Virus record (IMG/VR): IMGVR_UViG_3300032323_003201
Span: 8,062 to 72,061 of that record
From: a virus
Reading direction: 5' to 3' (one strand)
DNA: 64,000 bases
A program made the position numbers and the translations under genes. This document shows positions 1-64,000 of this stretch, one piece after another. Positions within the stretch are counted from its first letter, which is position 1. Every line of letters starts with the position of its first letter. The notes beneath the pieces were generated by a model. The model saw only the letters and a program-made list of their open reading frames with translations. It ran no database searches and was not told where the DNA came from.

Positions 1-1
1 T

Positions 2-463
2 GTCATCTCTATTGAAAAGAACAACTTTGGTCAGCTACATACCTTCACACTACAAAAAAACACTGACCTACCTATTAAGGAACATGTCACAACAGCAGGC
101 AATAAGAATAGTGCATGGATAGGTGTGCCAAGCCTTACCACCCTCTTTGAGAATGGGAAAATGATCCTACCAACAAAGACACCAGAGGATGTAGATAAGT
201 CAGATTTATTATGTAGTGAGCTGTATGGTCTTGGGAAGGAAAAGCATGATGATACAGTCATGAGCCTTTGGATTGCAGTATCTGCCATGAGAGATAGTGA
301 TTTTCAATATTCTATTGCTGTGGGTGATACCATGCTTGATGCACATGGTGAAAAAATGACACAAGCGAATTTTTCTTCCTATAGTAAGATAGCTCAAAGC
401 GAAGCTGTCCAGTCTATTTGGGATAGCTTTCAAATAGACTATGATGTTGATGATGAAGGATAA
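2..463 (+). CDS. terL: Terminase large subunit, C-terminal nuclease domain (5' partial)
   Basis: Frame is open from base 2: VISIEKNNFGQ...KHDDTVMSLWIA, matching the RNase H-like TerL motifs (IExNxxG and HDDxxxS/A). Phage structural context. Confidence 0.8.
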   Translation, partial: VISIEKNNFGQLHTFTLQKNTDLPIKEHVTTAGNKNSAWIGVPSLTTLFENGKMILPTKTPEDVDKSDLLCSELYGLGKEKHDDTVMSLWIAVSAMRDSDFQYSIAVGDTMLDAHGEKMTQANFSSYSKIAQSEAVQSIWDSFQIDYDVDDEG

Positions 464-468
464 AAATC

Positions 469-792
469 ATGATTATGAGAACGATTGAGCTGGCATCACA
501 AGATAACCAGCCTGTAATTTTTGACAAAGCAAGCATGGGGTTTTCCCCTGCAGATATCTTGTCAGCCTGTCAAATCCATTGCACAGGTCTTGATGGTGGT
601 AAATACAAGGTTGAGCTACTTCCACCTGATGGTTTTGGCTATATTCTTTTCCAAGACAATGCCACACAGCTTGATGGTGTGCTTGTGACTGAACAAAGCT
701 TTGTATTTGAAGCTCTAAGAGTAACCTTTATCGATTTGGGTGTAGGTGCACAACCAAAGGTCAAAGCCAACTTCTTTAGAAGGAGAATGTAG
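469..792 (+). CDS. Hypothetical protein, possibly a small beta-sandwich virion protein
   Basis: 107-aa ORF tightly packed between terL and the fibre gene; no recognised motif. Confidence 0.6.
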   Translation: MIMRTIELASQDNQPVIFDKASMGFSPADILSACQIHCTGLDGGKYKVELLPPDGFGYILFQDNATQLDGVLVTEQSFVFEALRVTFIDLGVGAQPKVKANFFRRRM

Positions 793-794
793 TC

Positions 795-11099: not shown

Positions 11100-11565
11100 G
11101 ATGAAGGACAAGTTTTTAAAATTTAGAATTGCTCAGTGCCTACACCTTGCCACCATGTCCCCCTGTAGTAGGAGACAATTTGGTGCAGTGATTGTAAACC
11201 CCACCTCAAATTCGATTTTGGCAGAGGGGTACAATGGCACACCAAGAGGACACCAGCACACACTTTGTGGCACTAGCTCTTGCCTTCGTGATTGTGTGCA
11301 AAGTGGCACAAAGCTAGAAATTGGCTGTCACCATGCAGAGGCTAATGCTTTGATGAATGCACTAAGAAATCATGCTGACATTAGGGGTGCTGTCATAATC
11401 GTAAGTGGTGAGCCTTGCCTTATGTGTGCAAAATTGATCCATCATTCAGGTATAGAGAAGGTCTACACAATACAAGGCTCATACTCTGCCAAGGATGGTG
11501 TAGACTACTTAATAGAAAACAATGTGCCAGTGCTAAAGGTCAATGCACAAGGAGAATATTTATGA
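11086..11565 (+). CDS. dCMP deaminase (ComEB/deoxycytidylate deaminase family)
   Basis: SPCSRRQFGAVI, GYNGTP, HAEANA and PCLMC zinc motifs. Confidence 0.9.
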   Translation: MRVAKMKDKFLKFRIAQCLHLATMSPCSRRQFGAVIVNPTSNSILAEGYNGTPRGHQHTLCGTSSCLRDCVQSGTKLEIGCHHAEANALMNALRNHADIRGAVIIVSGEPCLMCAKLIHHSGIEKVYTIQGSYSAKDGVDYLIENNVPVLKVNAQGEYL

Positions 11566-13055
11566 GTGATGATTTACAAGTCTTTGCAAAGGCAGCACTT
11601 AACCTACTAAAGCAAGCCATGATAGAAAACCCAAGCGTTGACACAGAGGGGATTGCTAAGAGCTTGATTGAAAACTTGGGGGAAAAACCCACAGTCATGA
11701 GCAAGGAAATCAACCCTGCTGATATTGCAAATGTGGGGATGATACCACCTTTAGAGATGGGTCATCGTGGCACTTTTGGCTTAACCTTTGACACACTACA
11801 AGCCATGTCTCGTGTGCCTGTTATCTCTGCTGTGATTAACACAAGAATAAATCAAGTGTCAGAGTTTGCCAAGGCAGTCAATGAAGATGATGGTCTTGGC
11901 TTTCAAATTCGTCTCAAAGATCGTAAGGCACATGCAAGTGAAGATGATAAGCAAAATATCCTTGAGATTACAGAGTTTATAAAATCATGTGGGGATAATC
12001 GAATAACTTTTGAAACTGACTTTGAAGCCTTCCTTCGTATGCTCGTAAGAGACTCTCTCATTTATGACCAAGCCTGCTTTGAAATCGTTCGTAACCAAGA
12101 TGGCAAGGTCTGTGGCTTTCTCAATGTGGATAGTGCCACAATAAGAAGGTCAGCTCTCACAGAGCAAGAGCGATTAGATGGTAGAAGGTCTGCTGATGGT
12201 GTGCAATTTGTGCAGGTGATGAATAACCAAATTGTGGCTCAATACAAAGCACTAGATCTATGTTGGGGTATTCGTAGACCAAGATCAGATTTACGATTTA
12301 GAGGCTATGGCTTTCCAGAGCTTGAAGAGCTTGTTAAAGTCATCACTCATATTTGTAATGCAGAAATATTTAATGCCAACAATTTCACCAATGGCATTTC
12401 TGCAAGTGGGATTATCGCAGTTAAATCAAAGATGAATCCAACTCTATTCAAAGCTTTTAGGAAAGAGTTTTACTCAATGCTTACAGGTGCAAGCAATAGT
12501 AAAAGGACACCTCTTATTCAGCTTGATCCAAGTAATAACGAAGAGGTGCAAAGCATCAATCTAAGCAATACAAACAAGGAGATGGAATACCAAGAATGGT
12601 TGAATTATTTGCTCAAAATCACTTGTGCCATGTTCCAAATAGACCCTGCAGAAATTGGCTTTAATTTTGGTGTAGAGGGTCAATCAAGTGCCATCTTCTC
12701 TATGGGTGTCCAAGATCGTGCAATCCTATCTAAAGAAAAGGGATTGAGGCCACTACTTAGAGCAATAGAGAGCTGGATCAATAGATACATTATTGACCAA
12801 ATTGACCCTCGTTATGAGCTTACATTCATTGGTCTTGATAGTATCCCTAAAGATAAACAGCTTGAGATGGATCTAAAAAAGATGAGCTTTATGACTCTCA
12901 ATGAAATCAGAGCTAAGTATGATCTGCCACCACACCCAATGGGTGATAAAATTGGCAATCCACTTTTTAATCCAACAGAGCAAGCTCAAGTTGGGGAACA
13001 AGTAAATGCACCTGAACAGCCTATACAACCCTCTGAAGAAAATCCTACAGAATAA
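11562..13055 (+). CDS. Portal protein
   Basis: AVINTRINQV, LVRDSLIYDQACFEI, GYGFPELE, FQIDPAEIGF, KGLRPLL and TLNEIR motifs typical of phage portals; RBS AAGGAG before ATG at 11562. Confidence 0.9.
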   Translation: MSDDLQVFAKAALNLLKQAMIENPSVDTEGIAKSLIENLGEKPTVMSKEINPADIANVGMIPPLEMGHRGTFGLTFDTLQAMSRVPVISAVINTRINQVSEFAKAVNEDDGLGFQIRLKDRKAHASEDDKQNILEITEFIKSCGDNRITFETDFEAFLRMLVRDSLIYDQACFEIVRNQDGKVCGFLNVDSATIRRSALTEQERLDGRRSADGVQFVQVMNNQIVAQYKALDLCWGIRRPRSDLRFRGYGFPELEELVKVITHICNAEIFNANNFTNGISASGIIAVKSKMNPTLFKAFRKEFYSMLTGASNSKRTPLIQLDPSNNEEVQSINLSNTNKEMEYQEWLNYLLKITCAMFQIDPAEIGFNFGVEGQSSAIFSMGVQDRAILSKEKGLRPLLRAIESWINRYIIDQIDPRYELTFIGLDSIPKDKQLEMDLKKMSFMTLNEIRAKYDLPPHPMGDKIGNPLFNPTEQAQVGEQVNAPEQPIQPSEENPTE

Positions 13056-15158: not shown

Positions 15159-16655
15159 ATGTTCGGTTTACCAAATAACAATGAAATGGTTAGCATTAGC
15201 GATTTAACTCGTTTAAATGATGCAATTCGCAAGGCAACCCCTGGTTTTGCTGGTTATCAAACCCCAGCTCAAATGGGTGATGGCTCTTTATCTCCTCTTG
15301 CCACCCAAAGCATTGAGGCTAATCTTGCCACAGCTACCTTTACAAGCAAGCACCTTACCTTGTGGCAAAAACTCACCAAGACCAGTGCAAATAATTTTAT
15401 CCATGAATATACCTCTGTGCTTGAAAATGGTTTAGATACCAATCCATTCATTGCAGAAGGTGAAGGTGGCTCTGATTCACTTGGCACAAATCAATCTGTG
15501 TATGAAAGAAAGTTTGTAAAGATCAAATTCATGGCAGAAAGACGCCAAGTATCTGATATGGCCTCTATGTTGTCATTCAACATTGGTGCAAATGCAAATG
15601 CTTTGGCAGAAGAAACTGAAAGAGGCACTTTAACTCTTCTCAAAAAAATCGAAAAAGCCTTGTGGTTTGGTGATGAAGATGTAAATCCTGAAGGCTTTGA
15701 TGGGATTATCAAGCAAATTGAGCGTACAAGTGGTGCGATTGTTGATGGTCAAGGTCGTCCTTATCGTTCAAATACTTGGGATTTAGAAGGCAAAGCTCCA
15801 ACTGTTCTTCTTCTTCAAGAAATCCTTGGTGAAGTATATGGGTCTCCAAATTATGGTGAACCTGATACCATCTATGTAACACCAGCTATCTATGCCGAAT
15901 TACAAAAGCAATTTAACGAACAAGGCAGATATGATATTAGCATCAGTGGCAATTCAATTGTTGCAGGTGTCAAGTCTATTTCTGTGATGGCACCATATGG
16001 TTTAGTTGATATTGTTTCTGCACCATTCCTTGAAAGATCAGAAAAACCCAATGCGATTGAAGCTGTAGGTCATGGGATTGTTGCAAGTTTCTCTACACAA
16101 CCAACAGCAGCAGCTGATGCATCTAGCAAGAGCAAGTTTAAGGCAGCAGATGCAGGCTTTTATAAATATGCAGTTGTTGCAGTCAATAAACTTGGTATGA
16201 CCTTGCCAATTATCTCTAATGCTGTTCAAGTATCAGCTGGGGATAAAGTAAGCATGAAGATTGCTCGCAATGGTGGAAATCCTGCAATCTCTTATCGTAT
16301 CTATCGCACAGCTAAGGCAGTATCTGCTGAAGCTGTGAATTTAGATTCTCTCAAATTTATTATGGAAGTATCTGCAAGCCAACTCGAAGGCAATACCTTT
16401 GCTGATTACAATCATTTCATGTATGGCTGTTCTCACATTGTGTTTGCAAATCATGATCCAGGTCAAATGGCTTTTGCAAAACTCATGGATTTCATGAGAA
16501 AAGATTTGGCACAAGTGTCTACAACAAGACCATTCTTGCTCATGCTTTTTGGCTCACTCATGGTAAAGACACCTAACAAGTTTTGGGTTGTTCGTAATGC
16601 TGGTGTGAACAATGCAAGTGGTGTTGCTGCTAATTATTTAAACGCAAATTTCTAA
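15159..16655 (+). CDS. Major capsid protein
   Basis: LATQSIE, ERKFVKIKFM, KKIEKALWFGD...FDGIIK and WDLEG motifs; position after protease/scaffold; RBS AGGAG. Confidence 0.88.
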   Translation: MFGLPNNNEMVSISDLTRLNDAIRKATPGFAGYQTPAQMGDGSLSPLATQSIEANLATATFTSKHLTLWQKLTKTSANNFIHEYTSVLENGLDTNPFIAEGEGGSDSLGTNQSVYERKFVKIKFMAERRQVSDMASMLSFNIGANANALAEETERGTLTLLKKIEKALWFGDEDVNPEGFDGIIKQIERTSGAIVDGQGRPYRSNTWDLEGKAPTVLLLQEILGEVYGSPNYGEPDTIYVTPAIYAELQKQFNEQGRYDISISGNSIVAGVKSISVMAPYGLVDIVSAPFLERSEKPNAIEAVGHGIVASFSTQPTAAADASSKSKFKAADAGFYKYAVVAVNKLGMTLPIISNAVQVSAGDKVSMKIARNGGNPAISYRIYRTAKAVSAEAVNLDSLKFIMEVSASQLEGNTFADYNHFMYGCSHIVFANHDPGQMAFAKLMDFMRKDLAQVSTTRPFLLMLFGSLMVKTPNKFWVVRNAGVNNASGVAANYLNANF

Positions 16656-22278: not shown

Positions 22279-22290
22279 GGATAGACTCCT

Positions 22291-23061: not shown

Positions 23062-23093
23062 AAAGGAAGCTCCAGTGGTTTGCTTGTGTATTG

Positions 23094-43816: not shown

Positions 43817-44764
43817 CTACCAACCCCACTCACCTGTCATACCACTTGCACTATAATCTGTGACTACACCCTCAAAAAAGTTTTTGAAAGACACCCCATT
43901 GACAATCCAATCAAGCCAAGGTAGTGGGTTTTTTTCAATATGATAAATAGGTGTGCAATTTAATTGGTGCAATCGTCTATCTGCTAGATACCTAATAAAT
44001 GTTTTAACAGCGACCTTGGTTAAGCTCTCCATCACTTGGATATCCCCAAAGATTAAATCAATGACTTGATCTTCTAGCTGCACTGCTGACTCAAACAGTC
44101 TCTTGATATCACTCTCACTTACCTTGACTTGGGTTTCTTCTACATAGGTATGGTAAAGCTTAGTCATTGCCTCAACATGTAAGCTCTCGTCTTTAATTGA
44201 CCATTCCACAACCTCACACATACCTTTCATTTTCCCATGCTGTTGGAAGTGTAAGAGCATGACAAATGCACTGAACAAGCTCATCCCTTCATTGCACACT
44301 GCTTGTGCCAGTGCATAGGCTGTTTGTGTGCTATCACTTGGGTTGATTGCTTGCATGTTGTGAATTTTATCTAGCATTGGCTTGTGACTAAGAAAATAAG
44401 CATACTCACTTTCATCAAGGCCAAGTGTGTCATTGAGTAGTGCATAAGCTCTCTGGTGTGTGCCTTCACGATTAGCAAAGGATAACAACATGTTGCGAAT
44501 TTCATTGTTCCTAAAAATAGGCAAGAATTGGTCAACATAGTTATCTGCTACAGCCACATCTGACTGAGTAAAAATTCTTAGGATTTGTGTGATAAAAAGC
44601 TTTTCAGTATCACTAAGACCCTTGCTTTTCCACTGCTTTACATCCTCCTGCAATTTTGCCTCCCATGTCCCCCAATGTGCCTTTTCATGACTCTCTGCAT
44701 ATTGCATTGCCCAAGGATAGTGGAAGGGTTTATATGTTTTGCTCTCTTTTAATAAATTACTCAT
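43817..44764 (-). CDS. nrdB: Ribonucleotide reductase class Ia, beta subunit
   Basis: DVAV, REGTHQRAY (radical Tyr), EGMSLFSAF, DESLH and NFFE motifs. Confidence 0.95.
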   Translation of the reverse strand: MSNLLKESKTYKPFHYPWAMQYAESHEKAHWGTWEAKLQEDVKQWKSKGLSDTEKLFITQILRIFTQSDVAVADNYVDQFLPIFRNNEIRNMLLSFANREGTHQRAYALLNDTLGLDESEYAYFLSHKPMLDKIHNMQAINPSDSTQTAYALAQAVCNEGMSLFSAFVMLLHFQQHGKMKGMCEVVEWSIKDESLHVEAMTKLYHTYVEETQVKVSESDIKRLFESAVQLEDQVIDLIFGDIQVMESLTKVAVKTFIRYLADRRLHQLNCTPIYHIEKNPLPWLDWIVNGVSFKNFFEGVVTDYSASGMTGEWGW

Positions 44765-50751: not shown

Positions 50752-50767
50752 AGCAAAGAACATGTTA

Positions 50768-50893: not shown

Positions 50894-50948
50894 CTGAAAT
50901 ATTGACTCACTCATGTGTTACATAAGTGTATTTCACAAGGATTTTACT

Positions 50949-52355
50949 ATGGATGAAAACACACTCTATAAGATAGCAGAGCTACTTCGTGGGAAGCTCA
51001 AGTCAAGCGACTATGCAGATTACATTTTGGCACTTGTTTGCTACCAAAGCCTTTGCTTGCTAGATGACATGCACAGGGACACACCAGATCAAATGTTTTT
51101 CAATATCCCAATCATCTTGAATGTGAGAAGCATAATTGATGCCTTCAAAAGAGACCCTGACTATGACACCATTGATGCATTACAACAAGCCTTTGCCTAT
51201 ATCCAAGACAAGCTAAGACAGTATGATGATGACTATGCCTCTATCTTTGATAGCTGTGTCATGGATCATGCAAGCTTGGGTGCAACTAGAATGCAAAGGA
51301 ATAGAACAATTGAGCCTATTCTTATTCATTTGAATAGTGCAGTGCACTCACAATCAATGAGTAACTTGGGGGATATCTATGAATTTTTTATCAATCATTT
51401 TGCTCAAATCAATCGTGGCTTTGGTGAATTTTACACCCCCAAGGAGATTGCAGAATTACAGGTTGAGCTATTACTAGATGATAGTGTGCAATCTGTGTAT
51501 GATCCAACCTGTGGATCAGGTGGCTTGCTCCTCCAAGCGATTAAGAAAAATGACAAGCTCAAGGTTTATGGACAAGAGCTTAACAAGTCAACATTCAATC
51601 TATCAATCATGAATTTGATGATGCATGGCCTACACCCATCCCAAATGAGTATAAAGCATGGTGATGTTTTGGATAACCCCATGCACATAGGCACTTCCTT
51701 TGATTTGATTGTGGCAAATCCCCCATTCTCTGTCTCTTGGAATGCAGACAAGCACAAGGATGAATTGAGATTTCCTATACTTGCACCCAAAGGCAAGGCT
51801 GACTTTGCATTTGTGCAGCATATCAGCTGGTACTTGAATGATTATGGTAAAGCGTCAATCATCTTGCCTCATGGTGTCCTCTTTAGGGGTGGGAATGAAG
51901 GGAAAATTAGGCAATGGTTTATTGACAACAATTTGATTGATTGCTTAATTAGCTTGCCACCCAACACCTTCTATAGCACAAGTATACCAACCTGCATGAT
52001 GATCCTACGAAGAGGAAGGGAAATAGACGCACCTATTCTATTCGTTGAGGCTAAGACTGAATGTGTCAAGGATGGTAAATTCAATCGTATTATCAAGGAT
52101 AGGATTTTAGATGTGTATGCTCATAAAAAAGAGATACCTGGATTTTCTAAGCTTGTAGAAAAGTCTGAAATCGTGCAGAATGAATATAACCTAAACTTTC
52201 CTAGATTTATCAGCACCTTTGAAGAAGAAGAGCAGATAGACTTAGAGAAGGTCATCCTAGAAACCAATGCTACAACTCAATCGATTAAGCACCTTACAAG
52301 CAAGATCAATGAGCATTTCAAGGCAATGGGTCTTAAAGTATTTTTGGAGATTTAA
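50949..52355 (+). CDS. hsdM: Type I RM-like N6 methyltransferase subunit (NPPF), orphan
   Basis: GEFYTP, YDPTCGSGGLL, YGQE, VANPPF, PHGVLFRGG, YNLN..R and a C-terminal coiled coil. Confidence 0.92.
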   Translation: MDENTLYKIAELLRGKLKSSDYADYILALVCYQSLCLLDDMHRDTPDQMFFNIPIILNVRSIIDAFKRDPDYDTIDALQQAFAYIQDKLRQYDDDYASIFDSCVMDHASLGATRMQRNRTIEPILIHLNSAVHSQSMSNLGDIYEFFINHFAQINRGFGEFYTPKEIAELQVELLLDDSVQSVYDPTCGSGGLLLQAIKKNDKLKVYGQELNKSTFNLSIMNLMMHGLHPSQMSIKHGDVLDNPMHIGTSFDLIVANPPFSVSWNADKHKDELRFPILAPKGKADFAFVQHISWYLNDYGKASIILPHGVLFRGGNEGKIRQWFIDNNLIDCLISLPPNTFYSTSIPTCMMILRRGREIDAPILFVEAKTECVKDGKFNRIIKDRILDVYAHKKEIPGFSKLVEKSEIVQNEYNLNFPRFISTFEEEEQIDLEKVILETNATTQSIKHLTSKINEHFKAMGLKVFLEI

Positions 52356-52358
52356 AGA

Positions 52359-52601: not shown

Positions 52602-52651
52602 TTGAACAATAAACAAGCAAACTGTTCAAAAATCAACAGAATTGAACAATA
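52581..52651. repeat. Tandem pair of palindromic operator-like sites (40-bp period)
   Basis: ATTGTTCAA-N12-TTGAACAAT and ACTGTTCAA-N12-TTGAACAAT. Confidence 0.8.
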
Positions 52652-52703
52652 TGATATTAAGCCTTGTGTTATGTATTGCATTTTTTAAACACAAGGAGAC
52701 AAA

Positions 52704-53300
52704 ATGCCTATTCAAATTATTAAGCCAGATAGCGAAGACCAAAAGGCTATCTATGATAAGAAGATTTTCCTAGCAGGTAGTATTGAAATGGGTGCTGCTG
52801 TTGATTGGCAAAAGGAAGTAGAAGCTGTTTTTGCAAATCACTTTTACAAAGAAAGAAATAATAGTGCCACAGTCTACAACCCAAGACGAATTAATTGGGA
52901 CAGCTCATGGAAGCAATCTATTGACAATGAACAATTTAGAAATCAAGTTGAGTGGGAACTAAACAGGCTGTTCCAAAGCAATCTCATTTTCATGTACTTG
53001 GATGAAAACACTAAATCACCAATCAGCTTACTTGAATTAGGCTTGTATGCTCAAGATACCAAGCTGGTTGTTGTTTGTGGTGAGAATTTTTGGAGAAGAG
53101 GCAATGTAGAGGTAACTTGCAATTATTTTGATGTGCCTCTGATTATCCACAACCCAAGAGAAGAGAGCCTTACAGATCTTCTGATTGCGAATGAAATGAC
53201 CTTTTTGAAGATCTTGTACAAGCTTAACCAAACCCTTGAATACTTTAGCACAGTAGACCCAAACTTTTCTCTTCAAGCTTTGAAAAAAAAGATGCAATGA
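52704..53300 (+). CDS. Nucleoside 2-deoxyribosyltransferase-like protein
   Basis: IFLAGSIEMG..DWQ, YNPRR..WD, QVEWEL, SPISLLELG and FWRRGNV motifs. Confidence 0.85.
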   Translation: MPIQIIKPDSEDQKAIYDKKIFLAGSIEMGAAVDWQKEVEAVFANHFYKERNNSATVYNPRRINWDSSWKQSIDNEQFRNQVEWELNRLFQSNLIFMYLDENTKSPISLLELGLYAQDTKLVVVCGENFWRRGNVEVTCNYFDVPLIIHNPREESLTDLLIANEMTFLKILYKLNQTLEYFSTVDPNFSLQALKKKMQ

Positions 53301-53372
53301 AATAAGAATTTATGTGTTAATAAGATTGTCAGCTCGTCCTTTGTAGATGGGGAATAGAAAAAGAGAATCGTA

Positions 53373-54221
53373 ATGCGTAGCACCTTTGAGCTGACACTAA
53401 TTGATGACCAAGCAAAACCCTTTATTAAGTGGGTTGGTGGGAAAAGGCAGTTATTGCCAGAGATAAAACATTATTTACCTAAGCAATTTAATCAATATTT
53501 TGAGCCTTTCATAGGTGGTGGTGCATTGTTCTTTGAGCTAAACACGAAGCATGCAGTAATCAATGACTACAATATTGAATTAGTCAATGTATACAAAACA
53601 ATAAAGCATGACCATATTGCACTTATTGAAGATTTAAAGAAGCATAGAAACACAGAGGATTACTACTATGCTATTCGTGGGTTAGATAGGGATGAGCAAG
53701 CATTTGCCAGCTTGACAGGTATTGAAAGAGCAAGTCGATTTATCTATTTGAATAAGACAGGCTACAATGGTCTATATCGTGTGAATAATAAAAATCAAAT
53801 CAATGTGGCCTTTGGTGGATATGAAGCACCATGCATTTTAGATGAGAATAATATCAAAGCCTGTCATCATGCTTTACAAACCACAACCATTTTGCAAGGT
53901 GACTTTGAGAATATTAAAGGCTTAATTCAAAAGGGGGATTTTGTCTACCTAGATCCACCCTATGCACCTTTGACACCAACTGCAAACTTTGTGTCATATA
54001 CAGCTCAAGGCTTTGATCAAGCTATGCAAGAGAGAGTAAAGAATTTGTGTGATGAGATAGATAAAATAGGTGCTTATTTCATGCTATCCAATTCAAGTGC
54101 AGACATGATTTTAAATTTGTATAGGCACTATGATATTAAAATGGTTTTGGCAAATCGCAAGATTAATTGTGCAAGTGATAAAAGGGGAGCTGTCAAAGAA
54201 GTACTTGTGACAAATTATTAA
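53373..54221 (+). CDS. dam: Dam-family DNA adenine methyltransferase
   Basis: KWVGGK, EPFIGGG, NGLYRVN, FVYLDPPY and FMLSNS motifs. Confidence 0.92.
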   Translation: MRSTFELTLIDDQAKPFIKWVGGKRQLLPEIKHYLPKQFNQYFEPFIGGGALFFELNTKHAVINDYNIELVNVYKTIKHDHIALIEDLKKHRNTEDYYYAIRGLDRDEQAFASLTGIERASRFIYLNKTGYNGLYRVNNKNQINVAFGGYEAPCILDENNIKACHHALQTTTILQGDFENIKGLIQKGDFVYLDPPYAPLTPTANFVSYTAQGFDQAMQERVKNLCDEIDKIGAYFMLSNSSADMILNLYRHYDIKMVLANRKINCASDKRGAVKEVLVTNY

Positions 54222-54273
54222 AAAAACCCCTTGTGTGCAGTGTTAAATATGTGACTCACACACAAGGAAAAAA

Positions 54274-54873
54274 ATGTTAATTGGATATGCAAGAGTAAGT
54301 ACAGATGAGCAATCACTAAACCTTCAGATTGATTATTTAAAGCAAGTAGGCTGTGATAAAATATATGAAGAGAAAATGACAGGCAAGACAAAGGATAGAC
54401 CAGAGCTGAAGAAGGCACTCGCTAAACTAAAGAAGGGTGATACCTTAGTATGTCTCAAGCTTGATCGTCTAGGTAGATCCATGAAGCACCTAATTGATAT
54501 TGTTGATCAAATCAAAGAAAAGGGTTGTCATTTTAAGACAAGTGATGGCATAGACACAAGCACGCACATGGGTGTTTTTATTTTCCATATCTTTGGTGCA
54601 CTCGCTGAGATGGAATTAGGCATGATCAAAGAGAGAACAAGATTAGGCTTGAATGCAGCCAAAGCAAGAGGAAGGATTGGTGGCAGACCCAAAGGTCTAT
54701 CAAAAAGATTGCAAGGCAAGGCTGACACAATTATACACCTATACAAGCAAGGGATGAAAGCTTGTGATATTGCCACCACAGTTGAGATTGCTCATGCAAG
54801 TGTTTACAATTGCTTAAAGGCTCAAGGCATTACCTTAAAAACTAAAACTAAGAATGAGAACAATCATGAGTAA
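54274..54873 (+). CDS. Serine recombinase (resolvase/invertase family)
   Basis: IGYARVST..Q...Q, RPEL, GDTLV..KLDRLGRS, ERT..GL.AA.ARGR.GGRP and a C-terminal HTH. Confidence 0.95.
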   Translation: MLIGYARVSTDEQSLNLQIDYLKQVGCDKIYEEKMTGKTKDRPELKKALAKLKKGDTLVCLKLDRLGRSMKHLIDIVDQIKEKGCHFKTSDGIDTSTHMGVFIFHIFGALAEMELGMIKERTRLGLNAAKARGRIGGRPKGLSKRLQGKADTIIHLYKQGMKACDIATTVEIAHASVYNCLKAQGITLKTKTKNENNHE

Positions 54874-56191
54874 AAAAATATCTGAGAAGGTGGATGCACT
54901 TTACCATTCATATGCACAGCATTTTACACAAGAGCAAGTGGCTCAAATTATCCTACAATCACTTTTATTACAAATGACAAGTGGCAAGATTTATGACTCA
55001 CTAGATGCAATTAAAGAGAGCATAGGGAATGCACCAGAAGAATATAAAATGCTATTGAATACAGCTCTCTTTGATAAGTGGCAAGCTCTAGCAATTTATG
55101 AAGAAGCAAGCAAGTTTGATTTGAGTCGTGAGAGAGATGATTTGGGGGAAGTATTTGAGTATTTGATTAGTCGTGCAGATGCACAAAGACTAGGACAATT
55201 CTACACACCCCCAACACTTGCTAATTTACTCATCAAAATTTGTATGCTTGGAAGAGGTGATGAGCCTTTATCTATCTATGATCCAGCTATGGGAACAGCA
55301 GGCTTACTTGTGCTTGCTCAAAAATACCTAAAGAGAGATGATAAATTCTATGGTCAAGAGTTTAATTCAACAAGCTGGAAGATAGCACTAATCAATGCTT
55401 TACTTAATGGTATGAAATATGATTTTGGCTCAAATCCATGTAGTACATTCATTTGTGATATCCATGCAAATCAAAAAATGGATATTATCCTTGCAAATCC
55501 ACCATACAATCAAAAGTCATGGAATGATGGGATTGATATCCTAAAGGATGATAGATTTAAAGATATGCCACACCCACCATCAAGCAATGGTAATTTTGCA
55601 TGGATCTTACATTGCCTGCACCACCTAAAGGATGATGGGATAGCAAGCATAGTAATTGCGAATGGGTCACTAACAACCATGCAAAAGGATGAGCTTGTAG
55701 TAAGAAAATATTTAGTAGAGCATGACCTAGTGGAAGCTGTCATATCACTACCACCAAAGCTATTTACAACAACAAGCATATCTGCATGTGTATGGGTGAT
55801 AAATAAAGCCAAGAAAAAGAAGGGACATATTCTTTTTGTGGATATCGCAAGTGAAGGCAAGAAGATTAGTAGAAATCAAAATGAGCTTGATATACTGACA
55901 ATTGACCAAGTGGTTGATACAATAGGTAGGTGGAGAAATGGGGAAGAGATAGGCACAAGCTCAAAGTATGTGGATAAAAGCATAGAGGACACAAAAGAGA
56001 GAAGCTACAATCTAGCACCTGGTCAATACCAAGAGGTAGTAGTAGATAAGTGTGAGATGACAGAGGAAAGCTTTGTGGAAAAGATGACAAGGCTTATATA
56101 TGAATTTGACACACTATCTGATGAGAGTGAGAAGCTCACAAAGAGAGTAAGAGAAAATCTAAGTAGGTTAAGGTGGGAAAATGAAAAATAG
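54866..56191 (+). CDS. hsdM: Second type I RM-like methyltransferase subunit (NPPY), orphan
   Basis: GQFYTP, IYDPAMGTAG, YGQE, LANPPYN, PP.SNGNFAW, YNLAPG.Y and a C-terminal coiled coil; shortened N-terminus. Confidence 0.9.
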   Translation: MSKKISEKVDALYHSYAQHFTQEQVAQIILQSLLLQMTSGKIYDSLDAIKESIGNAPEEYKMLLNTALFDKWQALAIYEEASKFDLSRERDDLGEVFEYLISRADAQRLGQFYTPPTLANLLIKICMLGRGDEPLSIYDPAMGTAGLLVLAQKYLKRDDKFYGQEFNSTSWKIALINALLNGMKYDFGSNPCSTFICDIHANQKMDIILANPPYNQKSWNDGIDILKDDRFKDMPHPPSSNGNFAWILHCLHHLKDDGIASIVIANGSLTTMQKDELVVRKYLVEHDLVEAVISLPPKLFTTTSISACVWVINKAKKKKGHILFVDIASEGKKISRNQNELDILTIDQVVDTIGRWRNGEEIGTSSKYVDKSIEDTKERSYNLAPGQYQEVVVDKCEMTEESFVEKMTRLIYEFDTLSDESEKLTKRVRENLSRLRWENEK

Positions 56192-56250
56192 AAAGTGCTT
56201 GAATAGTTTTTAGATCTAATTGGTGTTTATCCTCATGAAGGAGGATAGCG

Positions 56251-56565
56251 ATGTTTACCCTATCAGATATCAAAGACAATTTGCTATTCACAAAGACAGC
56301 TCAGGCACTAACCCCAAGTGAAGAAGAACATGACTTTATTGGGTCAGTGTGCGTTGTGTATGATGAATTAATGAAGCTTGCCAAGGTGCAAGTCAATATG
56401 CTCAATTTCACAGGTTATCCACCCTGCATTCACCCCATGATAGAGGATTGTTTAGAGCTGGTGCTAAATACAATCTTACTTCTATCTGCTCATAATTCAC
56501 CCCATGTCATTTGTAGGCCTGCACTTAGAACGATTGCAGAGCAAAGACTAAGGAGAAGAAAATGA
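56251..56565 (+). CDS. Hypothetical protein
   Basis: Strong RBS AAGGAGG; 104 aa. Confidence 0.65.
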   Translation: MFTLSDIKDNLLFTKTAQALTPSEEEHDFIGSVCVVYDELMKLAKVQVNMLNFTGYPPCIHPMIEDCLELVLNTILLLSAHNSPHVICRPALRTIAEQRLRRRK

Positions 56566-57548
56566 TCCTTGATAGTAGTTATGACCAGAGAGCATTGGCA
56601 CTTGAGGACAAGCTCAAGGCTATTTTAAAAACAGAGGAAGTGCAACATATTGCAAAGCTCGTTGCACAATTAAACCAAGGCAAGCTCAAAAACCTAGATA
56701 CAGCGATTAATCGATTTAATAGGGTTTTAGAGAAAGAAGTGATTACTTGTGTGTTTATAGAGCATGCACCCATAGAGATAAAGGAGAAGCTCATGCTAAA
56801 GGAGCAAAACGATCTTGAATGCTTAAACCTACCACTTGAATTTAAAGCATTCCTACACCAACCTGTTGCAAGCTACCCAAGCAAGACAGCCTTAATTAGA
56901 GATGCCTTAAAAAATGATGTACTTGAGACATACACACAGGCTCAAATCTCAAGGCTTATGCAAGTGTCAGAGAGAGCTGTAAGATATGCACTTGAAACAC
57001 AATCAAACACAGCCAAGCAACCCCATGCCACAAAGATAAGTGATTTAGGTCAACAGCTTATTAAAGACCATGAATTTAAGGTGGGTCTTTTCCCATCCAA
57101 GCAAGCATGGATTAGAGCTGTACTTCAACATGATGAGTATAAGACTCTTAGGACAAGTGAGCTTGCTCATATTGGTGGTGTGGCTGATTGTAATGTTGCT
57201 GCTCAAAGAACAATCATTGAGAAGGGTCTACCACTTCCAAAGGATAAGATGAGAAAGGTTGAGCCAAAGGTAGAAACAAAGATTGAAACAATGATTGTTG
57301 AGCCAAAGCTTGAGCCAATTGAAGAAAAAATCATGGCACAGATTGAAGCACCACCAACAATTATGCAAGTGGATAATAAGGTGCTGGTTGAAGTGGTGGA
57401 TGTCGTACAAGTAAAAAAGATCGTATCAAAAACAACTGTGGAAAGTCTACTTGAATCCATGTATCCTGAAGGCATTCAAGTAAGTGATTTCCACAAGCTC
57501 TTAAAGGTAGTGAAGCACCTAAAAAGAGCGATAAAATCGAAGGGATAA
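56562..57548 (+). CDS. Hypothetical protein with duplicated HTH-like unit
   Basis: YPSKTALIRDAL...TQAQISRLMQVSERAV and FPSKQAWIRAVL...TSELAHIGGV. Confidence 0.65.
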   Translation: MILDSSYDQRALALEDKLKAILKTEEVQHIAKLVAQLNQGKLKNLDTAINRFNRVLEKEVITCVFIEHAPIEIKEKLMLKEQNDLECLNLPLEFKAFLHQPVASYPSKTALIRDALKNDVLETYTQAQISRLMQVSERAVRYALETQSNTAKQPHATKISDLGQQLIKDHEFKVGLFPSKQAWIRAVLQHDEYKTLRTSELAHIGGVADCNVAAQRTIIEKGLPLPKDKMRKVEPKVETKIETMIVEPKLEPIEEKIMAQIEAPPTIMQVDNKVLVEVVDVVQVKKIVSKTTVESLLESMYPEGIQVSDFHKLLKVVKHLKRAIKSKG

Positions 57549-61701: not shown

Positions 61702-61732
61702 CACCATATAACCCCCAACACAAAGAGGTTTT

Positions 61733-62386: not shown

Positions 62387-62435
62387 TGGCCTTTATCCTT
62401 TTCATGTATCATGCTAAAAAAAGGAGATAAGACAA

Positions 62436-62723
62436 ATGCCAGCACCTATGAAAGCAAGAAAGATTGAAGGCACACCAATTACAAGCCTTAATTTTTTCAC
62501 ACCCCAACAATACAGCTTTGATAATTTTGACTCATCCAATATCTTAAGATACTTCTATGTGCCTATGACAAACATGCTCACTGTGCTTTTTGTATCTGGT
62601 CATGTGTATGAATATTTTGGTGTCCCTATGTATGTAGTAGACGCTTGGAATAAAGCAGGCTCAAAGGGTCAATACCATTACTATTTTATTCGCTTAAAAT
62701 ACTATTATAGGAAAGTTGTTTAG
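62436..62723 (+). CDS. KTSC-domain protein
   Basis: SSNI...Y......L.V.F.SG.VYEY.GVP.......A.SKGQY...IR signature. Confidence 0.85.
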   Translation: MPAPMKARKIEGTPITSLNFFTPQQYSFDNFDSSNILRYFYVPMTNMLTVLFVSGHVYEYFGVPMYVVDAWNKAGSKGQYHYYFIRLKYYYRKVV

Positions 62724-63450
62724 CAATCTCATCCCATGCCTTGAGCTTTTCATTTGCCACCCTTTGGTCTACCTCTTGGGATATCAGAAAGAGCTGTGTA
62801 GAAATAGGAAAGGCTAGTGTTACAAGTCTTAGGATTGCCTGAGCAAACTCACGAATTTCAGCTTGTGCATGCTCATCAAGTCTTAGAGCAAGGAAGTGAA
62901 GCACAGCCTGTAAATCTGCCTTCCAAATGCATTCACTATACATGCCAACAGGGAGCTGTACTCGTGCTTGCTCTCTACAAATCCCTTGGTCAAGCATCCA
63001 ATTGTAATTTTTGAAGGCAATCTCATAGCTTTCCATGAGCTTGGCATGTGCTTGCTCTGCAATGTCATCTTTTACCTCACCATAGCTAGATTGCTTACTT
63101 GTCTTATGCTGTAATCGCCAAGTGTGTGGCACAAATGCTTGTTCTTCTACCTCAACATATCTAGCACTTACTTCATTCCATGTACAGCCAATGGTGTGTT
63201 TCATCCACTGCCTAAGTACAAAGATGGGAGCTTTCACCCTAAATTTACAAGTGACCATTCTAAAGGGTGATGTGTGCTGGTGCATCCAAAGGTATTTCAT
63301 GAGCTTAATATCCTTATCCCCCATGCTTGGGGAAAAGCCTTTAAAGCTAACCCTTGCAGCATTCGCAATATCAAGGTCTGTTCCAAGTGTATCAATCAGC
63401 TCTACAAAGCCTTCAAATACTTCAATCGATGTTGTCTTTTGATTAAGCAT
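62686..63450 (-). CDS. thyX: FAD-dependent thymidylate synthase
   Basis: NAARVS, HTSPF, PIFVLRQWMKH, WNEVSARY, REQAR..LP and LRLDEHAQAEIR; start MLNQK after RBS AAGGAG. Confidence 0.93.
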   Translation of the reverse strand: MLNQKTTSIEVFEGFVELIDTLGTDLDIANAARVSFKGFSPSMGDKDIKLMKYLWMHQHTSPFRMVTCKFRVKAPIFVLRQWMKHTIGCTWNEVSARYVEVEEQAFVPHTWRLQHKTSKQSSYGEVKDDIAEQAHAKLMESYEIAFKNYNWMLDQGICREQARVQLPVGMYSECIWKADLQAVLHFLALRLDEHAQAEIREFAQAILRLVTLAFPISTQLFLISQEVDQRVANEKLKAWDEIAKQLSYNSILSE

Positions 63451-63624
63451 AGATTTTGCTCCTTTCATGTGTGAATATCGATATACCATAAACAGATCAG
63501 AAGGATGATTTTTTGACTTGCCTAAAAATAGCAATATAAAAGATTAAAAATTTAACTTTTTTGATTGATCAAATATAGAATTTTGTTTATATATAAACTT
63601 GCTGTTTATTCTTAAGGAGGATTT

Positions 63625-64000
63625 ATGCAGATTCAAGACATTGCCAAAAGATTACCTATTGGTATAGAAGTGCCTATCATAGGCTTTGATACAGAAACAT
63701 TTTTGATTGGTGCAACAGGAGAAACCCCACGCCTTGTATGTGGCACTTTCTCTATGCCAGATGTAGAGCCTAGCTCTCTCTTTGCACAAAAGATGATTGT
63801 GCTAAGTAGCACCCATTTAGATAAGACCTTGCTTTTAGATCCTATGGACACTGTCAAGCTCTTTAGAAAAATTTTGTTAGAGAGTAATGCAATCATAGCT
63901 ATTCACAATGCAAAATTTGATTTGCTTGTATTGATTGAGCAAGACCCATCACTGACACCAATCATTATTAGTGCCTTAAAGCAAGGCAGATTGATTTGCA
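63625..64000 (+). CDS. Family A DNA polymerase, N-terminal 3'-5' exonuclease domain (3' partial)
   Basis: Not in the ORF track because it runs off the window end. RBS AAGGAGG; MQIQDIAK...IIGFDTET (ExoI)...HNAKFDL (ExoII); upstream TTAACTTTTT-TGA-TTGATC-N17-TATATA promoter. Confidence 0.8.
   Translation, partial: MQIQDIAKRLPIGIEVPIIGFDTETFLIGATGETPRLVCGTFSMPDVEPSSLFAQKMIVLSSTHLDKTLLLDPMDTVKLFRKILLESNAIIAIHNAKFDLLVLIEQDPSLTPIIISALKQGRLIC

What the first reader, a model, noticed from the sequence alone, without database searches (positions are those of the whole stretch)
1..64000. Strong, specific avoidance of CG-core tetramers across the window
Seen by reading, not counted exhaustively: CG appears almost only as TCGN, NCGA or ACGC/GCGT. 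The few CCG I found are all CCGA (about 15894, 43808, 47814) and the CGG are all TCGG (e.g. 1239, 13081, 45691). I found no ACGT, GCGC, CCGG, CCGC/GCGG or CCGT/ACGG, although dozens to hundreds of each are expected in 64 kb. GATC, AGCT, GGCC, GTAC and TGCA are all present. Inference: long-term selection by several host type II restriction enzymes, a CpG-directed modification or mutagenesis process, or an unknown defence reading VCGB-like sites. It also works as a host fingerprint.
Basis: seen in the sequence. Interest (0 to 1): 0.7.

Follow-up and report, generated by a model that had tools for sequence, protein, structure and literature searches.

The report
Phage genome scrubbed of restriction sites
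This freshwater phage has removed about twenty short DNA words from its genome, and keeps two others on one strand only, which is the mark left by many host restriction enzymes and records the defences of a host nobody has identified.

Summary
The window is 64 kb of a 72,061-bp myovirus. ACGT, GCGC, CGCG, CCGG, CCGC/GCGG and ACGG/CCGT occur 0 times. CCG/CGG occurs 13 times, always as CCGA/TCGG. Shuffling synonymous codons within genes predicts 25-447 copies of each, so codon usage and overall CpG poverty do not explain it.

- GGGC/GCCC occurs 3 times (189 expected) and GGCG/CGCC 13 times (172 expected).
- GAWTC, GGNCC and six 6-bp palindromes are near zero.
- Two words sit on one DNA strand only: GAAGC 119:0 and CTCG 101:0, whatever the gene direction.

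Relatives with 85-92% identical proteins all lack ACGT, GCGC and CGCG, but otherwise carry different sets. Some purge only CCGG and CCGC. Others purge ACAG/GCAG, or lock CCAAG, CCTGA, AGTGC or GCAG to one strand.

Best reading (0.8): selection by many strain-specific host restriction-modification systems. Palindromes point to Type II. Words lost in both orientations suggest IIS/IIG-like enzymes. One-strand words match Type III evasion, as in T7 with EcoP15I. Replacements are mostly synonymous and about 40% are transversions, which argues against deamination alone. The VCGB idea fails because ACGC/GCGT are present. The host is unknown; three methyltransferase genes point weakly to Campylobacterota. 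This is a known kind of phenomenon in an unusually extreme and modular form.

The parts
1..64000 (.). Genome-wide exclusion of short words. Absent or nearly absent in both orientations: ACGT, GCGC, CGCG, CCGG, CCGC, ACGG, GGGC, GGCG, GAWTC, GGNCC and several 6-bp palindromes. Absent in one orientation only: GCTTC and CGAG, while GAAGC and CTCG are frequent on the + strand.
   Evidence: Residual partly avoided words (GATC, GTAC, TCGA, GGCC) are spread evenly along the genome (chi-square p 0.55-0.89).
15895..15898 (+). One of the 13 surviving CCG/CGG, all in the context CCGA/TCGG. The other CCGA start at 43809 and 47814. TCGG start at 1239, 7434, 13081, 13803, 15163, 18291, 18486, 22699, 27737 and 45691.
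   Evidence: One search lists every occurrence with its codon context. The synonymous shuffle expects 148 CCGA/TCGG in coding sequence; 10 are observed there.
44709..44712 (-). GCCC on the + strand, which is TGG GCA (Trp-Ala) on the coding strand. It is the only one of the 3 surviving GGGC/GCCC that cannot be removed without changing the protein. The other two are at 13746-13749 and 46112-46115, both GGG CCA.
   Evidence: The shuffle expects 187-189 GGGC/GCCC.
50913..52355 (+). N6-adenine DNA methyltransferase of the Type I M-subunit kind (HsdM_N plus N6_Mtase). No specificity domain was found.
   Evidence: Pfam PF02384, E 3.7e-91. Nearest named cellular homologues are 35-38% identical: 10 of 13 organism-named rows are Arcobacter/Aliarcobacter.
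52704..53300 (+). Nucleoside 2-deoxyribosyltransferase-like protein inside the methyltransferase island.
   Evidence: Pfam PF15891, E 3.2e-32. Function here is unknown.
53373..54221 (+). Dam-like D12-class N6-adenine methyltransferase. It is present in this phage and absent from G001-G004.
   Evidence: Pfam PF02086, E 6.9e-62. Found in 1 of 5 records. All 4 organism-named homologues, about 59-61% identical, are Campylobacterota.
54274..54873 (+). Serine recombinase (resolvase) lying between the methyltransferase genes.
   Evidence: Pfam PF00239, E 3.1e-44.
54854..56191 (+). Second N6-adenine methyltransferase (N6_Mtase). It is conserved in G001 and G002.
   Evidence: Pfam PF02384, E 1.4e-75. 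Matches in G001 and G002. Best organism-named cellular hit is an 'Epsilonproteobacteria bacterium' MAG at 39%.
11415..13055 (+). Portal protein. Together with the protease (13530-14714), the SU10-like major capsid protein (15159-16655) and the tail sheath (19425-21356), it shows that the window is a contractile-tailed phage.
   Evidence: Pfam hits. G000 is a virus record with direct terminal repeats.

Best explanation
The window is most of the genome of a virulent freshwater myovirus. Its sequence has been edited, mostly at synonymous codon positions and codon junctions, by selection against cleavage by a large and fast-changing set of host restriction-modification systems with short recognition sites.

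There are three layers:
1. Palindromes are removed in full: ACGT, GCGC, CGCG, CCGG, GAWTC, GGNCC and several 6-mers. This is what Type IIP enzymes would select.
2. Asymmetric words are removed in both orientations: CCGC, ACGG, GGGC, GGCG, GRACT, with CCGA leaky. Type IIS/IIG-like enzymes would select this.
3. Asymmetric words are kept at normal frequency on one DNA strand and removed from the other: GAAGC and CTCG. This disarms enzymes that cut only between inversely oriented sites, namely Type III, or Type ISP or MANTIS-like systems.

The 3-letter CCG gap is most likely the sum of several 4-letter purges.

Shown here: the counts, the null models, that the strand lock follows the DNA strand rather than the coding strand, the modular turnover among relatives, and the synonymous nature of the replacements.

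Inferred: that nucleases are the selective agent, which enzyme classes act, and that the host is a member of Campylobacterota.
For: (a) The depletion goes beyond composition, Markov and synonymous-shuffle nulls. The six 6-bp palindromes GAGCTC, TCTAGA, ACTAGT, CCTAGG, GGATCC and GAATTC total 1 copy, against about 8-32 expected for each.

(b) Palindromes as a class are depleted. For 6-mers the median observed/expected is 0.52 against 0.93, Mann-Whitney p=1.3e-6; for CG-free words p=5e-6.

(c) Strand lock in G000: GAAGC 119:0 and CTCG 101:0.
- In + genes the sense strand has GAAGC 97 (71 expected) and GCTTC 0 (42 expected).
- In - genes the sense strand has GAAGC 0 (13 expected) and GCTTC 16 (12 expected).
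- CTCG/CGAG behave the same way.
- One-mismatch neighbours of both words are roughly balanced.

(d) Relatives show other locks that also follow the DNA strand in records with genes on both strands: CCAAG 4:104 in G002; CCAAG 0:60, CCTGA 31:0, AGTGC 0:29 and GCAG 1:26 in G004; GCAG 46:1 and ACAG 25:0 in G003.

(e) The sets are modular. All 20 related sequences examined lack ACGT, GCGC and CGCG or nearly so. Only G000 and its nearest relative L040 (84-86% nucleotide identity) lack all CCGN. L001, L011, L044 and L047 lack CCGG, CCGC and ACGC but keep ACGG, CCGA and GGGC. G001 lacks GGGC. G002-4 lack ACAG and GCAG.

(f) The CGAG lock is absent in L040 (27:16). At L040's 16 CGAG sites G000 has AGAG 8 times, and 12 of 16 changes are synonymous.

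(g) At 130 sites where the outgroups keep CCG/CGG, G000 has CAG 37, CTG 31 and CCA 26. Of 122 coding cases, 90 are synonymous.

Random placement of the same substitution types gives a mean of 4.2 and P(0)=0.016.

(i) Literature, read as passages:
- T7 carries 36 EcoP15 sites in one orientation and is resistant (PMC3874151).
- CGAG, CCTGA and ACAGC are Type III ModA motifs of H. influenzae (PMC10073500).
- GCAG is a Type III motif, and GCGC, ACGT, CCGG, TCGA, GTAC and GANTC are Type II motifs, in H. pylori (PMC3936762).
Against: - No host and no cognate enzyme is known, so no avoided word has been matched to a real nuclease.
- I know of no restriction enzyme for GGGC, ACGG/CCGT, GGCG or GAAGC. 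This is recall; REBASE was not available.
- The full CCGN purge needs three or four separate specificities that happen to cover one trinucleotide. That is less parsimonious than one 3-bp reader.
- G000 and L040 also have about 2-3-fold fewer of the tolerated CG words than relatives (AACG, CGTA, AGCG, CGAC). This general CpG thinning has no assigned word.
- A survey of cultured phages found Type III site avoidance rare and no systematic strand-asymmetric avoidance (PMC6286503, passages). This family would be an outlier.
- Gene calls are a crude longest-ORF set. The lineage groups were defined after seeing the data, and several loci are near-duplicates.
- One apparent lock in relatives (ACCAT, G004 52:7) has all 7 of its exceptions in the + genes, so it tracks the sense strand there rather than the DNA strand.
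Confidence: 0.8

Rival explanations
1. One unknown host defence, in the hosts of the G000/L040 lineage, reads a 3-bp or CpG-context signal (CCG, weak on CCGA). This would cause the CCG/CGG gap and the general CpG thinning, on top of ordinary restriction avoidance.
For: - All four CCGN are depleted together in G000 and L040: 0 of about 640 CCGB and 17 of about 242 CCGA, scaled from relatives.
- Tolerated CG words are also about 2-3-fold rarer than in relatives.
- Total CG is 0.38 of the shuffle expectation in G000 against 0.84-0.85 in G001 and G002.
- I recall no bacterial enzyme for ACGG/CCGT or CCGA.
Against: - CCGG and CCGC are purged without ACGG or CCGA in L001, L011, L044 and L047.
- CCGG alone is partly depleted in G002-4. 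So at least two CCG-containing modules exist on their own.
- G000 carries many unrelated purges, so several more specificities are not surprising.
- The survival of CCGA needs a special assumption.
Confidence: 0.1
2. Context-specific cytosine methylation followed by deamination, or another CpG-directed mutator, eroded the CG words. No selection by nucleases is involved.
For: - TG and CA are in excess (observed/expected 1.36 and 1.42) while CG is at 0.21.
- GCAC/GTGC, the deamination product of GCGC, is the second most enriched tetramer against the shuffle (1.59x, z 16.8, after CAAG/CTTG).
- Loss of m5C-ACGT by deamination is described for H. pylori (PMC10423294, passages).
Against: - At conserved CCG sites the transversion product CAG (37) is as common as the transition products CTG (31) and CCA (26).
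- ACAT/ATGT and CCAG/CTGG are under-represented, not enriched.
- Depletion is absolute, and it persists through about 15% nucleotide divergence between G000 and L040.
- Non-CpG words and CG-free palindromes are purged as well.
- Deamination cannot produce one-strand locks that ignore gene direction.
- No C5 methyltransferase was found in G000-G004, 0 of 5 records.
Confidence: 0.06
3. The bias arises at the RNA or translation level: codon-pair preference, or avoidance of a ribonuclease or toxin cleavage motif in mRNA.
For: - Most changes sit at codon junctions.
- GGAG/CTCC, the Shine-Dalgarno core, is at 0.37 of expectation inside genes, and 45 of 72 genes have a Shine-Dalgarno-like motif upstream.
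- In some relatives ACCAT seems avoided on the sense strand.
Against: - The absent words are absent from both strands and from the 6 kb of intergenic DNA.
- The strand-locked words follow the physical strand and flip relative to the mRNA in minus-strand genes.
- Close relatives with nearly the same proteins have different sets.
Confidence: 0.03
4. The pattern is an artefact of assembly, sequencing or base-calling of modified DNA.
For: Nothing positive. It was considered because modified motifs can be miscalled.
Against: - The same profile appears in an independent metagenome contig, L040.
- The stretch is held by runs of 14 studies.
- Contigs of other runs lie on it with 0 differences over pieces of 0.4-1.3 kb (table 8).
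- The changes are synonymous and reading frames are intact.
Confidence: 0.01

Closest known systems
Phage T7 and EcoP15I: the strand-bias model of Type III restriction
   Same: An asymmetric site occurs many times, always in one orientation, so an enzyme that needs inversely oriented sites cannot cut. T7 has 36 sites in one orientation (PMC3874151, passages).
   Different: - Here the words are shorter (4-5 bp) and far more numerous (119 and 101 copies against 0).
- Two are locked at once in this phage. In relatives, at least four are locked in G004, and up to six in short loci whose genes all face one way, so a coding-strand bias is not excluded there.
- The locked set differs between close relatives.
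- Neither the enzyme nor the host is known.
Restriction-site avoidance in phage genomes (Sharp 1986, recalled from the reference list seen; Rusinov et al. 2018, PMC6286503)
   Same: Short palindromic Type II sites are eliminated from virulent dsDNA phages. That survey reports complete or near-complete elimination of sites in about a tenth of viral genomes (abstract and passages).
   Different: - The number of words removed at once (about 20) is large.
- They include 4-mers and in effect a 3-mer.
- Asymmetric words are purged.
- Strand-asymmetric avoidance is clear, whereas that survey did not find it systematically.
Helicobacter pylori restriction-modification repertoire and methylome (PMC3936762; PMC10423294)
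   Same: Strain-variable sets of many 4-5-bp specificities: GCGC, ACGT, CCGG, TCGA, GTAC, GANTC and the Type III motif GCAG. Several are exactly the words purged here or in relatives.
   Different: Those data concern a bacterial host's methylation, not a phage's sequence. CATG and TGCA, typical H. pylori targets, are enriched in this phage. No link to Helicobacter itself is claimed.
Haemophilus influenzae Type III ModA specificities
   Same: CGAG, CCTGA and ACAGC are ModA target motifs (PMC10073500, table passage). CGAG is strand-locked in G000, CCTGA in G004, and ACAG is purged or locked in G002-4.
   Different: The organism is unrelated. The match shows only that such short words are within the range of Type III enzymes.
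MANTIS and BREX-like hemimethylating defences (bioRxiv 10.64898/2026.09.23.753747)
   Same: The preprint reports strand-biased depletion of asymmetric sites in virulent Pseudomonas phages, for MANTIS and for Type III sites (passages).
   Different: MANTIS sites are 6 bp and its orientation preference is graded. Here the words are 4-5 bp and the exclusion is absolute.
Pandoravirus 4-mer anomaly (bioRxiv 10.1101/712018)
   Same: A spectacular anomaly in the 4-mer composition of giant virus genomes, attributed to a stringent selection process (title and start of abstract only).
   Different: It concerns a eukaryotic giant virus. The details were not read.

Membership tests
Type II restriction-site (palindrome) avoidance | Short palindromes are under-represented beyond what composition and codon usage predict. 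| tested here: met
   ACGT, GCGC, CGCG and CCGG are 0 against 92, 82, 25 and 29 expected by synonymous shuffle. GAWTC is 14 against 107, and GGWCC 1 against 23. As a class, 6-bp palindromes have a median observed/expected of 0.52 against 0.93, p=1e-6.
Type II restriction-site (palindrome) avoidance | The host encodes enzymes with these specificities. | not testable with these tools
   The host is not identified. REBASE is not available.
Type II restriction-site (palindrome) avoidance | Sites are removed without damaging proteins, that is by synonymous change. | tested here: met
   90 of 122 coding replacements at conserved CCG/CGG sites are synonymous. 12 of 16 are synonymous at CGAG sites. 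Of the 3 surviving GGGC/GCCC, one is an unavoidable Trp-Ala.
Type III strand-bias evasion (T7/EcoP15I kind) | An asymmetric word is frequent in one orientation and absent in the other. | tested here: met
   GAAGC 119:0 and CTCG 101:0 over 72 kb. One-mismatch neighbours are roughly balanced.
Type III strand-bias evasion (T7/EcoP15I kind) | The polarity follows the DNA strand across the genome, independent of transcription direction. | tested here: met
   The polarity flips relative to the sense strand in the 21 minus-strand genes. The same holds for CCAAG, CCTGA, AGTGC, GCAG and ACAG in G002-G004. ACCAT in G004 does not pass this test.
Type III strand-bias evasion (T7/EcoP15I kind) | The word lies within the known specificity range of Type III Mod proteins. 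| tested here: inconclusive
   CGAG, CCTGA, ACAGC and GCAG are published Type III motifs. No published enzyme for GAAGC, CCAAG or AGTGC was looked up or is recalled.
Type III strand-bias evasion (T7/EcoP15I kind) | The host has res/mod genes and hemimethylates the word. | not testable with these tools
   The host is unknown and no methylation data are available.
CpG suppression by 5-methylcytosine deamination | Losses are dominated by C-to-T or G-to-A transitions, with a matching TG/CA excess. | tested here: not met
   TG and CA are in excess. But at conserved CCG sites CAG (37) is about as common as CTG (31) and CCA (26), and the expected products ACAT and CCAG are under-represented.
CpG suppression by 5-methylcytosine deamination | A cytosine-5 methyltransferase acts on the genome. 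| tested here: inconclusive
   PF00145 was found in 0 of 5 phage records. Host enzymes are unknown.
Self-protection by phage-encoded methyltransferases | The phage carries DNA methyltransferases whose targets need not be avoided. | tested here: inconclusive
   Three N6-adenine methyltransferases are present. Their specificities are unknown. GATC is still at 0.63 of expectation despite the Dam-like gene.

The most novel reading that the evidence does not exclude
These phage genomes are negative imprints of an uncharted set of defences. The hosts of the G000/L040 lineage would carry a system that reads as little as CCG, a CpG in an S-rich context. The hosts of related lineages would carry four or more orientation-dependent systems at once, with 4-5-bp sites: CCAAG, CCTGA, AGTGC, GCAG and perhaps CAACT and GGTCAA. 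That is shorter and more numerous than any set of Type III enzymes described for one strain, so at least some of the imprints may come from a defence class not yet characterised.
Probability: 0.15. Interest if true: 0.85.

Novelty: new member of a known kind. Interest (0 to 1): 0.62.

Why it matters
- **A readable record of host defences.** The genome lists roughly twenty recognition words, sorted by mode: palindrome, both orientations, or one orientation. They belong to the defence systems of a host that has not been cultured or even identified.
- **A route to the host.** The words can be matched against methylation motifs from long-read metagenomes, which could link phage to host strain.
- **A natural time series.** Relatives with about 88% identical proteins carry different sets. 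The CGAG lock arose after the split from a relative that is 84-86% identical in nucleotides. So the family shows how fast restriction repertoires turn over and how fast a phage can recode. My sum of the shuffle deficits is of the order of 1,400 word occurrences avoided in 66 kb of coding sequence; overlapping words are counted twice.
- **A counter-example to a survey.** A survey of cultured phages found strand-asymmetric avoidance not to be systematic (PMC6286503). This family shows that it can be extreme.

Tried and rejected
**Host identification, unsuccessful**
- Megablast of 25 kb against cultured phages found nothing.
- tblastn of the capsid and sheath proteins found only hits below 30% identity, to phages of many phyla.
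- tblastn with DNA polymerase A found only hits of about 24-25% identity, to phages of Thermus, Clostridium, Pseudomonas and Enterococcus.
- A capsid scan of genome contigs found no relative.
- A scan with the ribonucleotide reductase large subunit returned 80 loci. The best is Sutterella at 47-49%, and none is Campylobacterota. The nearest cultured-phage reductases are phage C48C1 (62%) and Methylophilales phage Melnitz (59%). This points to Betaproteobacteria and their phages, so it disagrees with the methyltransferase-based lead.
- The Protein Atlas gave only viral clusters for ThyX and the sliding clamp.
- A plasmid search with the Dam-like protein gave Firmicutes at 47%.
- No tRNA genes were found.

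**Composition comparator**
- A Sulfuricurvum kujiense plasmid (GC 39.9%) has a CpG observed/expected ratio of 1.13, with CCGC and ACCG enriched. It shows only that one Campylobacterota replicon of like GC content does not share the phage's profile. The host genus is not established.

**Other ideas tested**
- Trp-Ala scarcity as a protein-level trace of GGGC avoidance is not clean. Observed against expected: G000 1 against 17, G001 5 against 18. But G004, which does not avoid GGGC, has 1 against 7.8.
- Cyanobacterial host: HIP1 (GCGATCGC) occurs 0 times and ATGCAT 18 times. Shine-Dalgarno usage is strong. The idea was dropped.
- PAM avoidance, the phage avoiding targets of its own nuclease, and replication-linked polar motifs were considered. 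They were not pursued, because palindromes dominate and the locks are absolute.
- Parts of the stretch without cover in the laid runs are not interpreted.
- Habitat labels from runs holding a share below 0.2 are not used.

**Not available or not used**
- Supplementary files of papers were closed. The motif tables of PMC10423294 and PMC6286503 that I could not see may list further matching specificities.
- Structure prediction, fold search, complex prediction, the RNA tools and the search of protein representatives were not used, because no claim needed them.

**Rows left out**
- In some searches the near-duplicate loci G004, L010 and L045 were left out of the comparison groups to limit redundancy. 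L008 is part of G001.

Full report
**What the window is.** The window is bases 8062-72061 of a single 72,061-bp virus record with direct terminal repeats. It encodes:
- a portal, an S78 prohead protease, an SU10-like major capsid protein and a contractile tail sheath;
- baseplate proteins and an endolysin;
- in the first 8 kb of the record, outside the window: a terminase, a family A DNA polymerase, a PD-(D/E)XK nuclease and an SNF2-like helicase;
- a VapE-type primase-helicase, a sliding clamp, class I ribonucleotide reductase and ThyX;
- an island of three N6-adenine methyltransferase genes, with a resolvase and a nucleoside deoxyribosyltransferase-like gene.

No tRNA genes were found. It is therefore a myovirus. 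No cultured phage is close: nothing by megablast, and the capsid is at most about 27% identical to any. Runs of 14 studies hold the stretch or part of it. Those holding half its words or more are labelled freshwater, wetland, wastewater and crustacean metagenomes.

**The observation.**
- CG occurs 527 times in 64 kb, an observed/expected ratio of 0.21.
- ACGT, GCGC, CCGG, CCGC/GCGG and ACGG/CCGT occur 0 times.
- CCG occurs 3 times and CGG 10 times, all as CCGA/TCGG, at the places quoted or one base from them.
- GATC, AGCT, GGCC, GTAC and TGCA are present.

A shuffle of synonymous codons within each of 72 crude gene calls keeps the proteins and each gene's codon usage. It expects 447+-18 CCG|CGG (10 observed), 91 ACGT, 82 GCGC, 25 CGCG (0 each) and 1475 CG in all (562 observed). 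A second-order Markov model still expects 41 ACGT and 26 GCGC in the window. CCGG, CCGC and CCGT are not independent of the near absence of the trinucleotide CCG/CGG. The label VCGB is wrong, because ACGC/GCGT occur 67 times in the window, at 0.44 of the shuffle expectation, like the other tolerated CG words.

These counts are for the whole genome.
- CGCG occurs 0 times.
- GGGC/GCCC, which has no CpG, occurs 3 times against 187-189 expected. One survivor is an unavoidable Trp-Ala codon pair.
- GGCG/CGCC occurs 13 times against 172 expected.
- GAWTC occurs 16 times, GGNCC 3 times and CCWGG 17 times.
- GAGCTC, TCTAGA, ACTAGT, CCTAGG and GGATCC occur 0 times and GAATTC once, against about 8-32 expected for each.
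- AGTYC/GRACT occurs 4 times.
- TCGA, GTAC and GAAC are at 0.2-0.5 of expectation.
- Palindromic 6-mers as a class have a median observed/expected of 0.52, against 0.93 for non-palindromes (p=1.3e-6). For CG-free words the test gives p=5e-6.

This is the classical trace of Type II restriction.

**Strand-locked words.** GAAGC occurs 119 times on the + strand and its complement GCTTC never. CTCG occurs 101 times and CGAG never. The total number of GAAGC is close to expectation; only one orientation is missing.

The lock follows the physical strand, not the mRNA:
- In the 51 plus-strand genes the sense strand has 97 GAAGC (shuffle expects 71) and 0 GCTTC (42 expected).
- In the 21 minus-strand genes the sense strand has 0 GAAGC (13 expected) and 16 GCTTC (12 expected).
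- CTCG/CGAG behave alike.

Words one letter away from either locked word are roughly balanced. Enzymes that cut only between inversely oriented sites would select exactly this. The textbook case is T7, whose 36 EcoP15 sites all point one way (PMC3874151, passages). CGAG is itself a published Type III motif, of ModA in H. influenzae (PMC10073500, table passage).

**Relatives.** I obtained 11 viral-contig loci and 8 metagenome loci. Four related records were fetched whole or as far as held: G001 72.7 kb, G002 63 kb, G003 and G004 35 kb each. Capsid and portal proteins are 80-92% identical to those of G000. DNA is about 75-80% identical, and 84-86% for the nearest relative, L040.

All of them lack ACGT, GCGC and CGCG or nearly so, and most are poor in GAWTC. 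Beyond that they fall into sets, which I defined after seeing the data:
- **G000 and L040:** lack all CCGN, GGGC and GGCG.
- **L001, L011, L044, L047:** lack CCGG, CCGC, ACGC/GCGT and GGWCC, and are poor in GGCC. They keep ACGG, CCGA, GGGC and GAATC.
- **G001:** lacks GGGC (12 against 182 expected) and is poor in ACAG.
- **G002-4 and several loci:** poor in ACAG (29 against 281 expected in G002) and GCAG (41 against 228 expected).

The locks differ too:

| Word | Where it is locked |
|---|---|
| GAAGC | G000, L040 (40:0), G001 (107:5) and six loci; not in G002 (44:51) |
| CTCG | G000 only (L040 27:16) |
| CCAAG | G002 (104:4), G004 (60:0) and others |
| CCTGA, AGTGC | G004 (31 and 29 copies against 0 in the other orientation) |
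| GCAG, ACAG | G003 (46:1 and 25:0) |

Where a record has genes on both strands, these locks again follow the DNA strand. ACCAT in G004 is the exception. GCAG is a Type III motif of H. pylori, and CCTGA and ACAGC are ModA motifs. So the CCG gap of this phage splits into modules that occur separately elsewhere, and the sets turn over faster than the proteins diverge.

**How the words were removed.** At 130 places where at least 60% of the outgroup rows keep CCG or CGG, G000 has CAG (37), CTG (31), CCA (26) or other words. Of the 122 coding cases, 90 are synonymous, mostly NCS|G changed to NCW|G. At the 16 CGAG sites of L040, G000 has AGAG 8 times, which is Arg CGA changed to AGA. Twelve of the 16 changes are synonymous.

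The purge has been held through about 15% nucleotide divergence between G000 and L040, and neither has a single CCGB. A strain about 97% identical is seen in two other runs. Random placement of the same substitution types would create 4.2 on average, with P(0)=0.016. This is weak, but it points the same way.

**Rival explanations.**
- **Deamination of methylated CpG.** It would give transitions, graded depletion and enriched products. Instead transversions make up about 40% of replacements, depletion is absolute, ACAT and CCAG are under-represented, CG-free words are purged too, and no C5 methyltransferase is encoded. It may contribute to the TG/CA excess.
- **RNA- or translation-level selection.** It fails the gene-orientation test. 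GGAG, the Shine-Dalgarno core, may be an exception.
- **Artefact.** It is excluded by independent contigs and runs.
- **A single short-reading defence for CCG.** It remains possible for the G000/L040 lineage. All four CCGN fall together, tolerated CG words are also 2-3-fold rarer than in relatives, and total CG is 0.38 of the shuffle expectation against 0.84-0.85. I put it at about 0.1, because CCGG and CCGC are demonstrably separate modules elsewhere.

**Host.** The host is not established.
- For Campylobacterota:
  - All 4 organism-named homologues of the Dam-like gene, about 59-61% identical, are Hydrogenimonas, Sulfurimonas (twice) and a Campylobacterales bacterium.
  - Of the 13 organism-named homologues of the first HsdM-like gene, 10 are Arcobacter/Aliarcobacter, at 35-38%.
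  - The best organism-named cellular hit of the second HsdM-like gene is an Epsilonproteobacteria MAG, at 39%.
  - 45 of the 72 called genes have a Shine-Dalgarno-like motif upstream, and this phylum is known for many short-site restriction systems.
- Against, or neutral: the ribonucleotide reductase is nearest to Sutterella (47-49%) and to a Methylophilales phage (59%).
- I could not reach any Campylobacterota chromosome. One Sulfuricurvum plasmid of the same GC content has a CpG ratio of 1.13 and none of the gaps. If the host is of that kind, the phage's profile is not mimicry of host composition.

**Comparison with what is known.** Restriction-site avoidance and the T7 strand bias are established. 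A survey of cultured phages found that avoidance mainly concerns orthodox Type II sites, is very rare for Type III sites, and found no systematic strand-asymmetric avoidance (PMC6286503, passages). A 2026 preprint reports strand-biased depletion for MANTIS and Type III sites in Pseudomonas phages.

This phage family belongs to the same kind of phenomenon. It stands out in four ways: about twenty words are purged at once, the words are short, the strand locks are absolute (119:0 and 101:0), and the sets differ between near relatives. I searched the held library seven times and saw no description of this family, or of a comparable multi-word, multi-lock case. That is no proof that none exists.

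**Verdict.** The restriction reading is supported, and broadened to orientation-dependent systems. The mutagenesis and VCGB readings are not supported. It is a new and extreme member of a known kind. Interest 0.62. Confidence in the main explanation 0.8.

Noticed in passing
window 50152-57548: A variable methyltransferase island: an HsdM-like gene, a nucleoside 2-deoxyribosyltransferase-like gene, a Dam-like gene, a resolvase and a second HsdM-like gene. Neither HsdM-like protein has a recognisable specificity domain or a neighbouring HsdS, so they might borrow host specificity subunits (speculation). The repertoire differs between relatives: G002 has two N6_N4 methyltransferases instead, and only G000 has the Dam-like gene.
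   Followed up: partly
window 21916-23684: A 1,769-bp segment carrying four small minus-strand ORFs inside the tail module is cleanly absent from a strain about 97% identical seen in runs X7 and X9. One contig joins across it (table 5). It looks like an accessory, moron-like insertion.
   Followed up: no
G001:C1:42516-45332 (L015, L016): The large subunit of ribonucleotide reductase in relative G001 matches in two pieces within one 949-aa open frame; G000 has 572 aa. This suggests an intein or other in-frame insertion.
   Followed up: no
window 10021-10623: A second, weak and partial Thy1 (ThyX-like) match, E 7e-7, lies in a 200-aa ORF just upstream of the portal gene. It is in addition to the full ThyX at 62686-63534. 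A PAPS-reductase-like gene lies at 46573-47421. A DNA-modification pathway is possible but was not examined.
   Followed up: no
whole window: CAAG/CTTG is about 3 times over-represented against base composition and 1.46 times against the codon shuffle (z=24). It is the most enriched tetramer, and relatives show it too. It may be a by-product of the forced codon choices, or a signal in its own right.
   Followed up: partly
whole window, coding regions: Trp-Ala dipeptides are scarce: 1 against 17 expected in G000. They are also scarce in relatives that do not avoid GGGC, for example 1 against 7.8 in G004. The cause is unclear.
   Followed up: partly
G001:C1:34375-35692 (L032, L038): One N6_Mtase gene of G001 has an in-frame TGA, and a second fragment follows it. 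It may be a broken or programmed-readthrough methyltransferase.
   Followed up: no
G004, L010, L041, L045: ACCAT is almost absent from the sense strand, while ATGGT is common: 0:36 in L010 and 52:7 on the record strand of G004. In G004 all 7 exceptions lie in the + genes, so there it tracks the coding strand rather than the DNA strand, unlike the other locks. An RNA-level cause is possible.
   Followed up: partly
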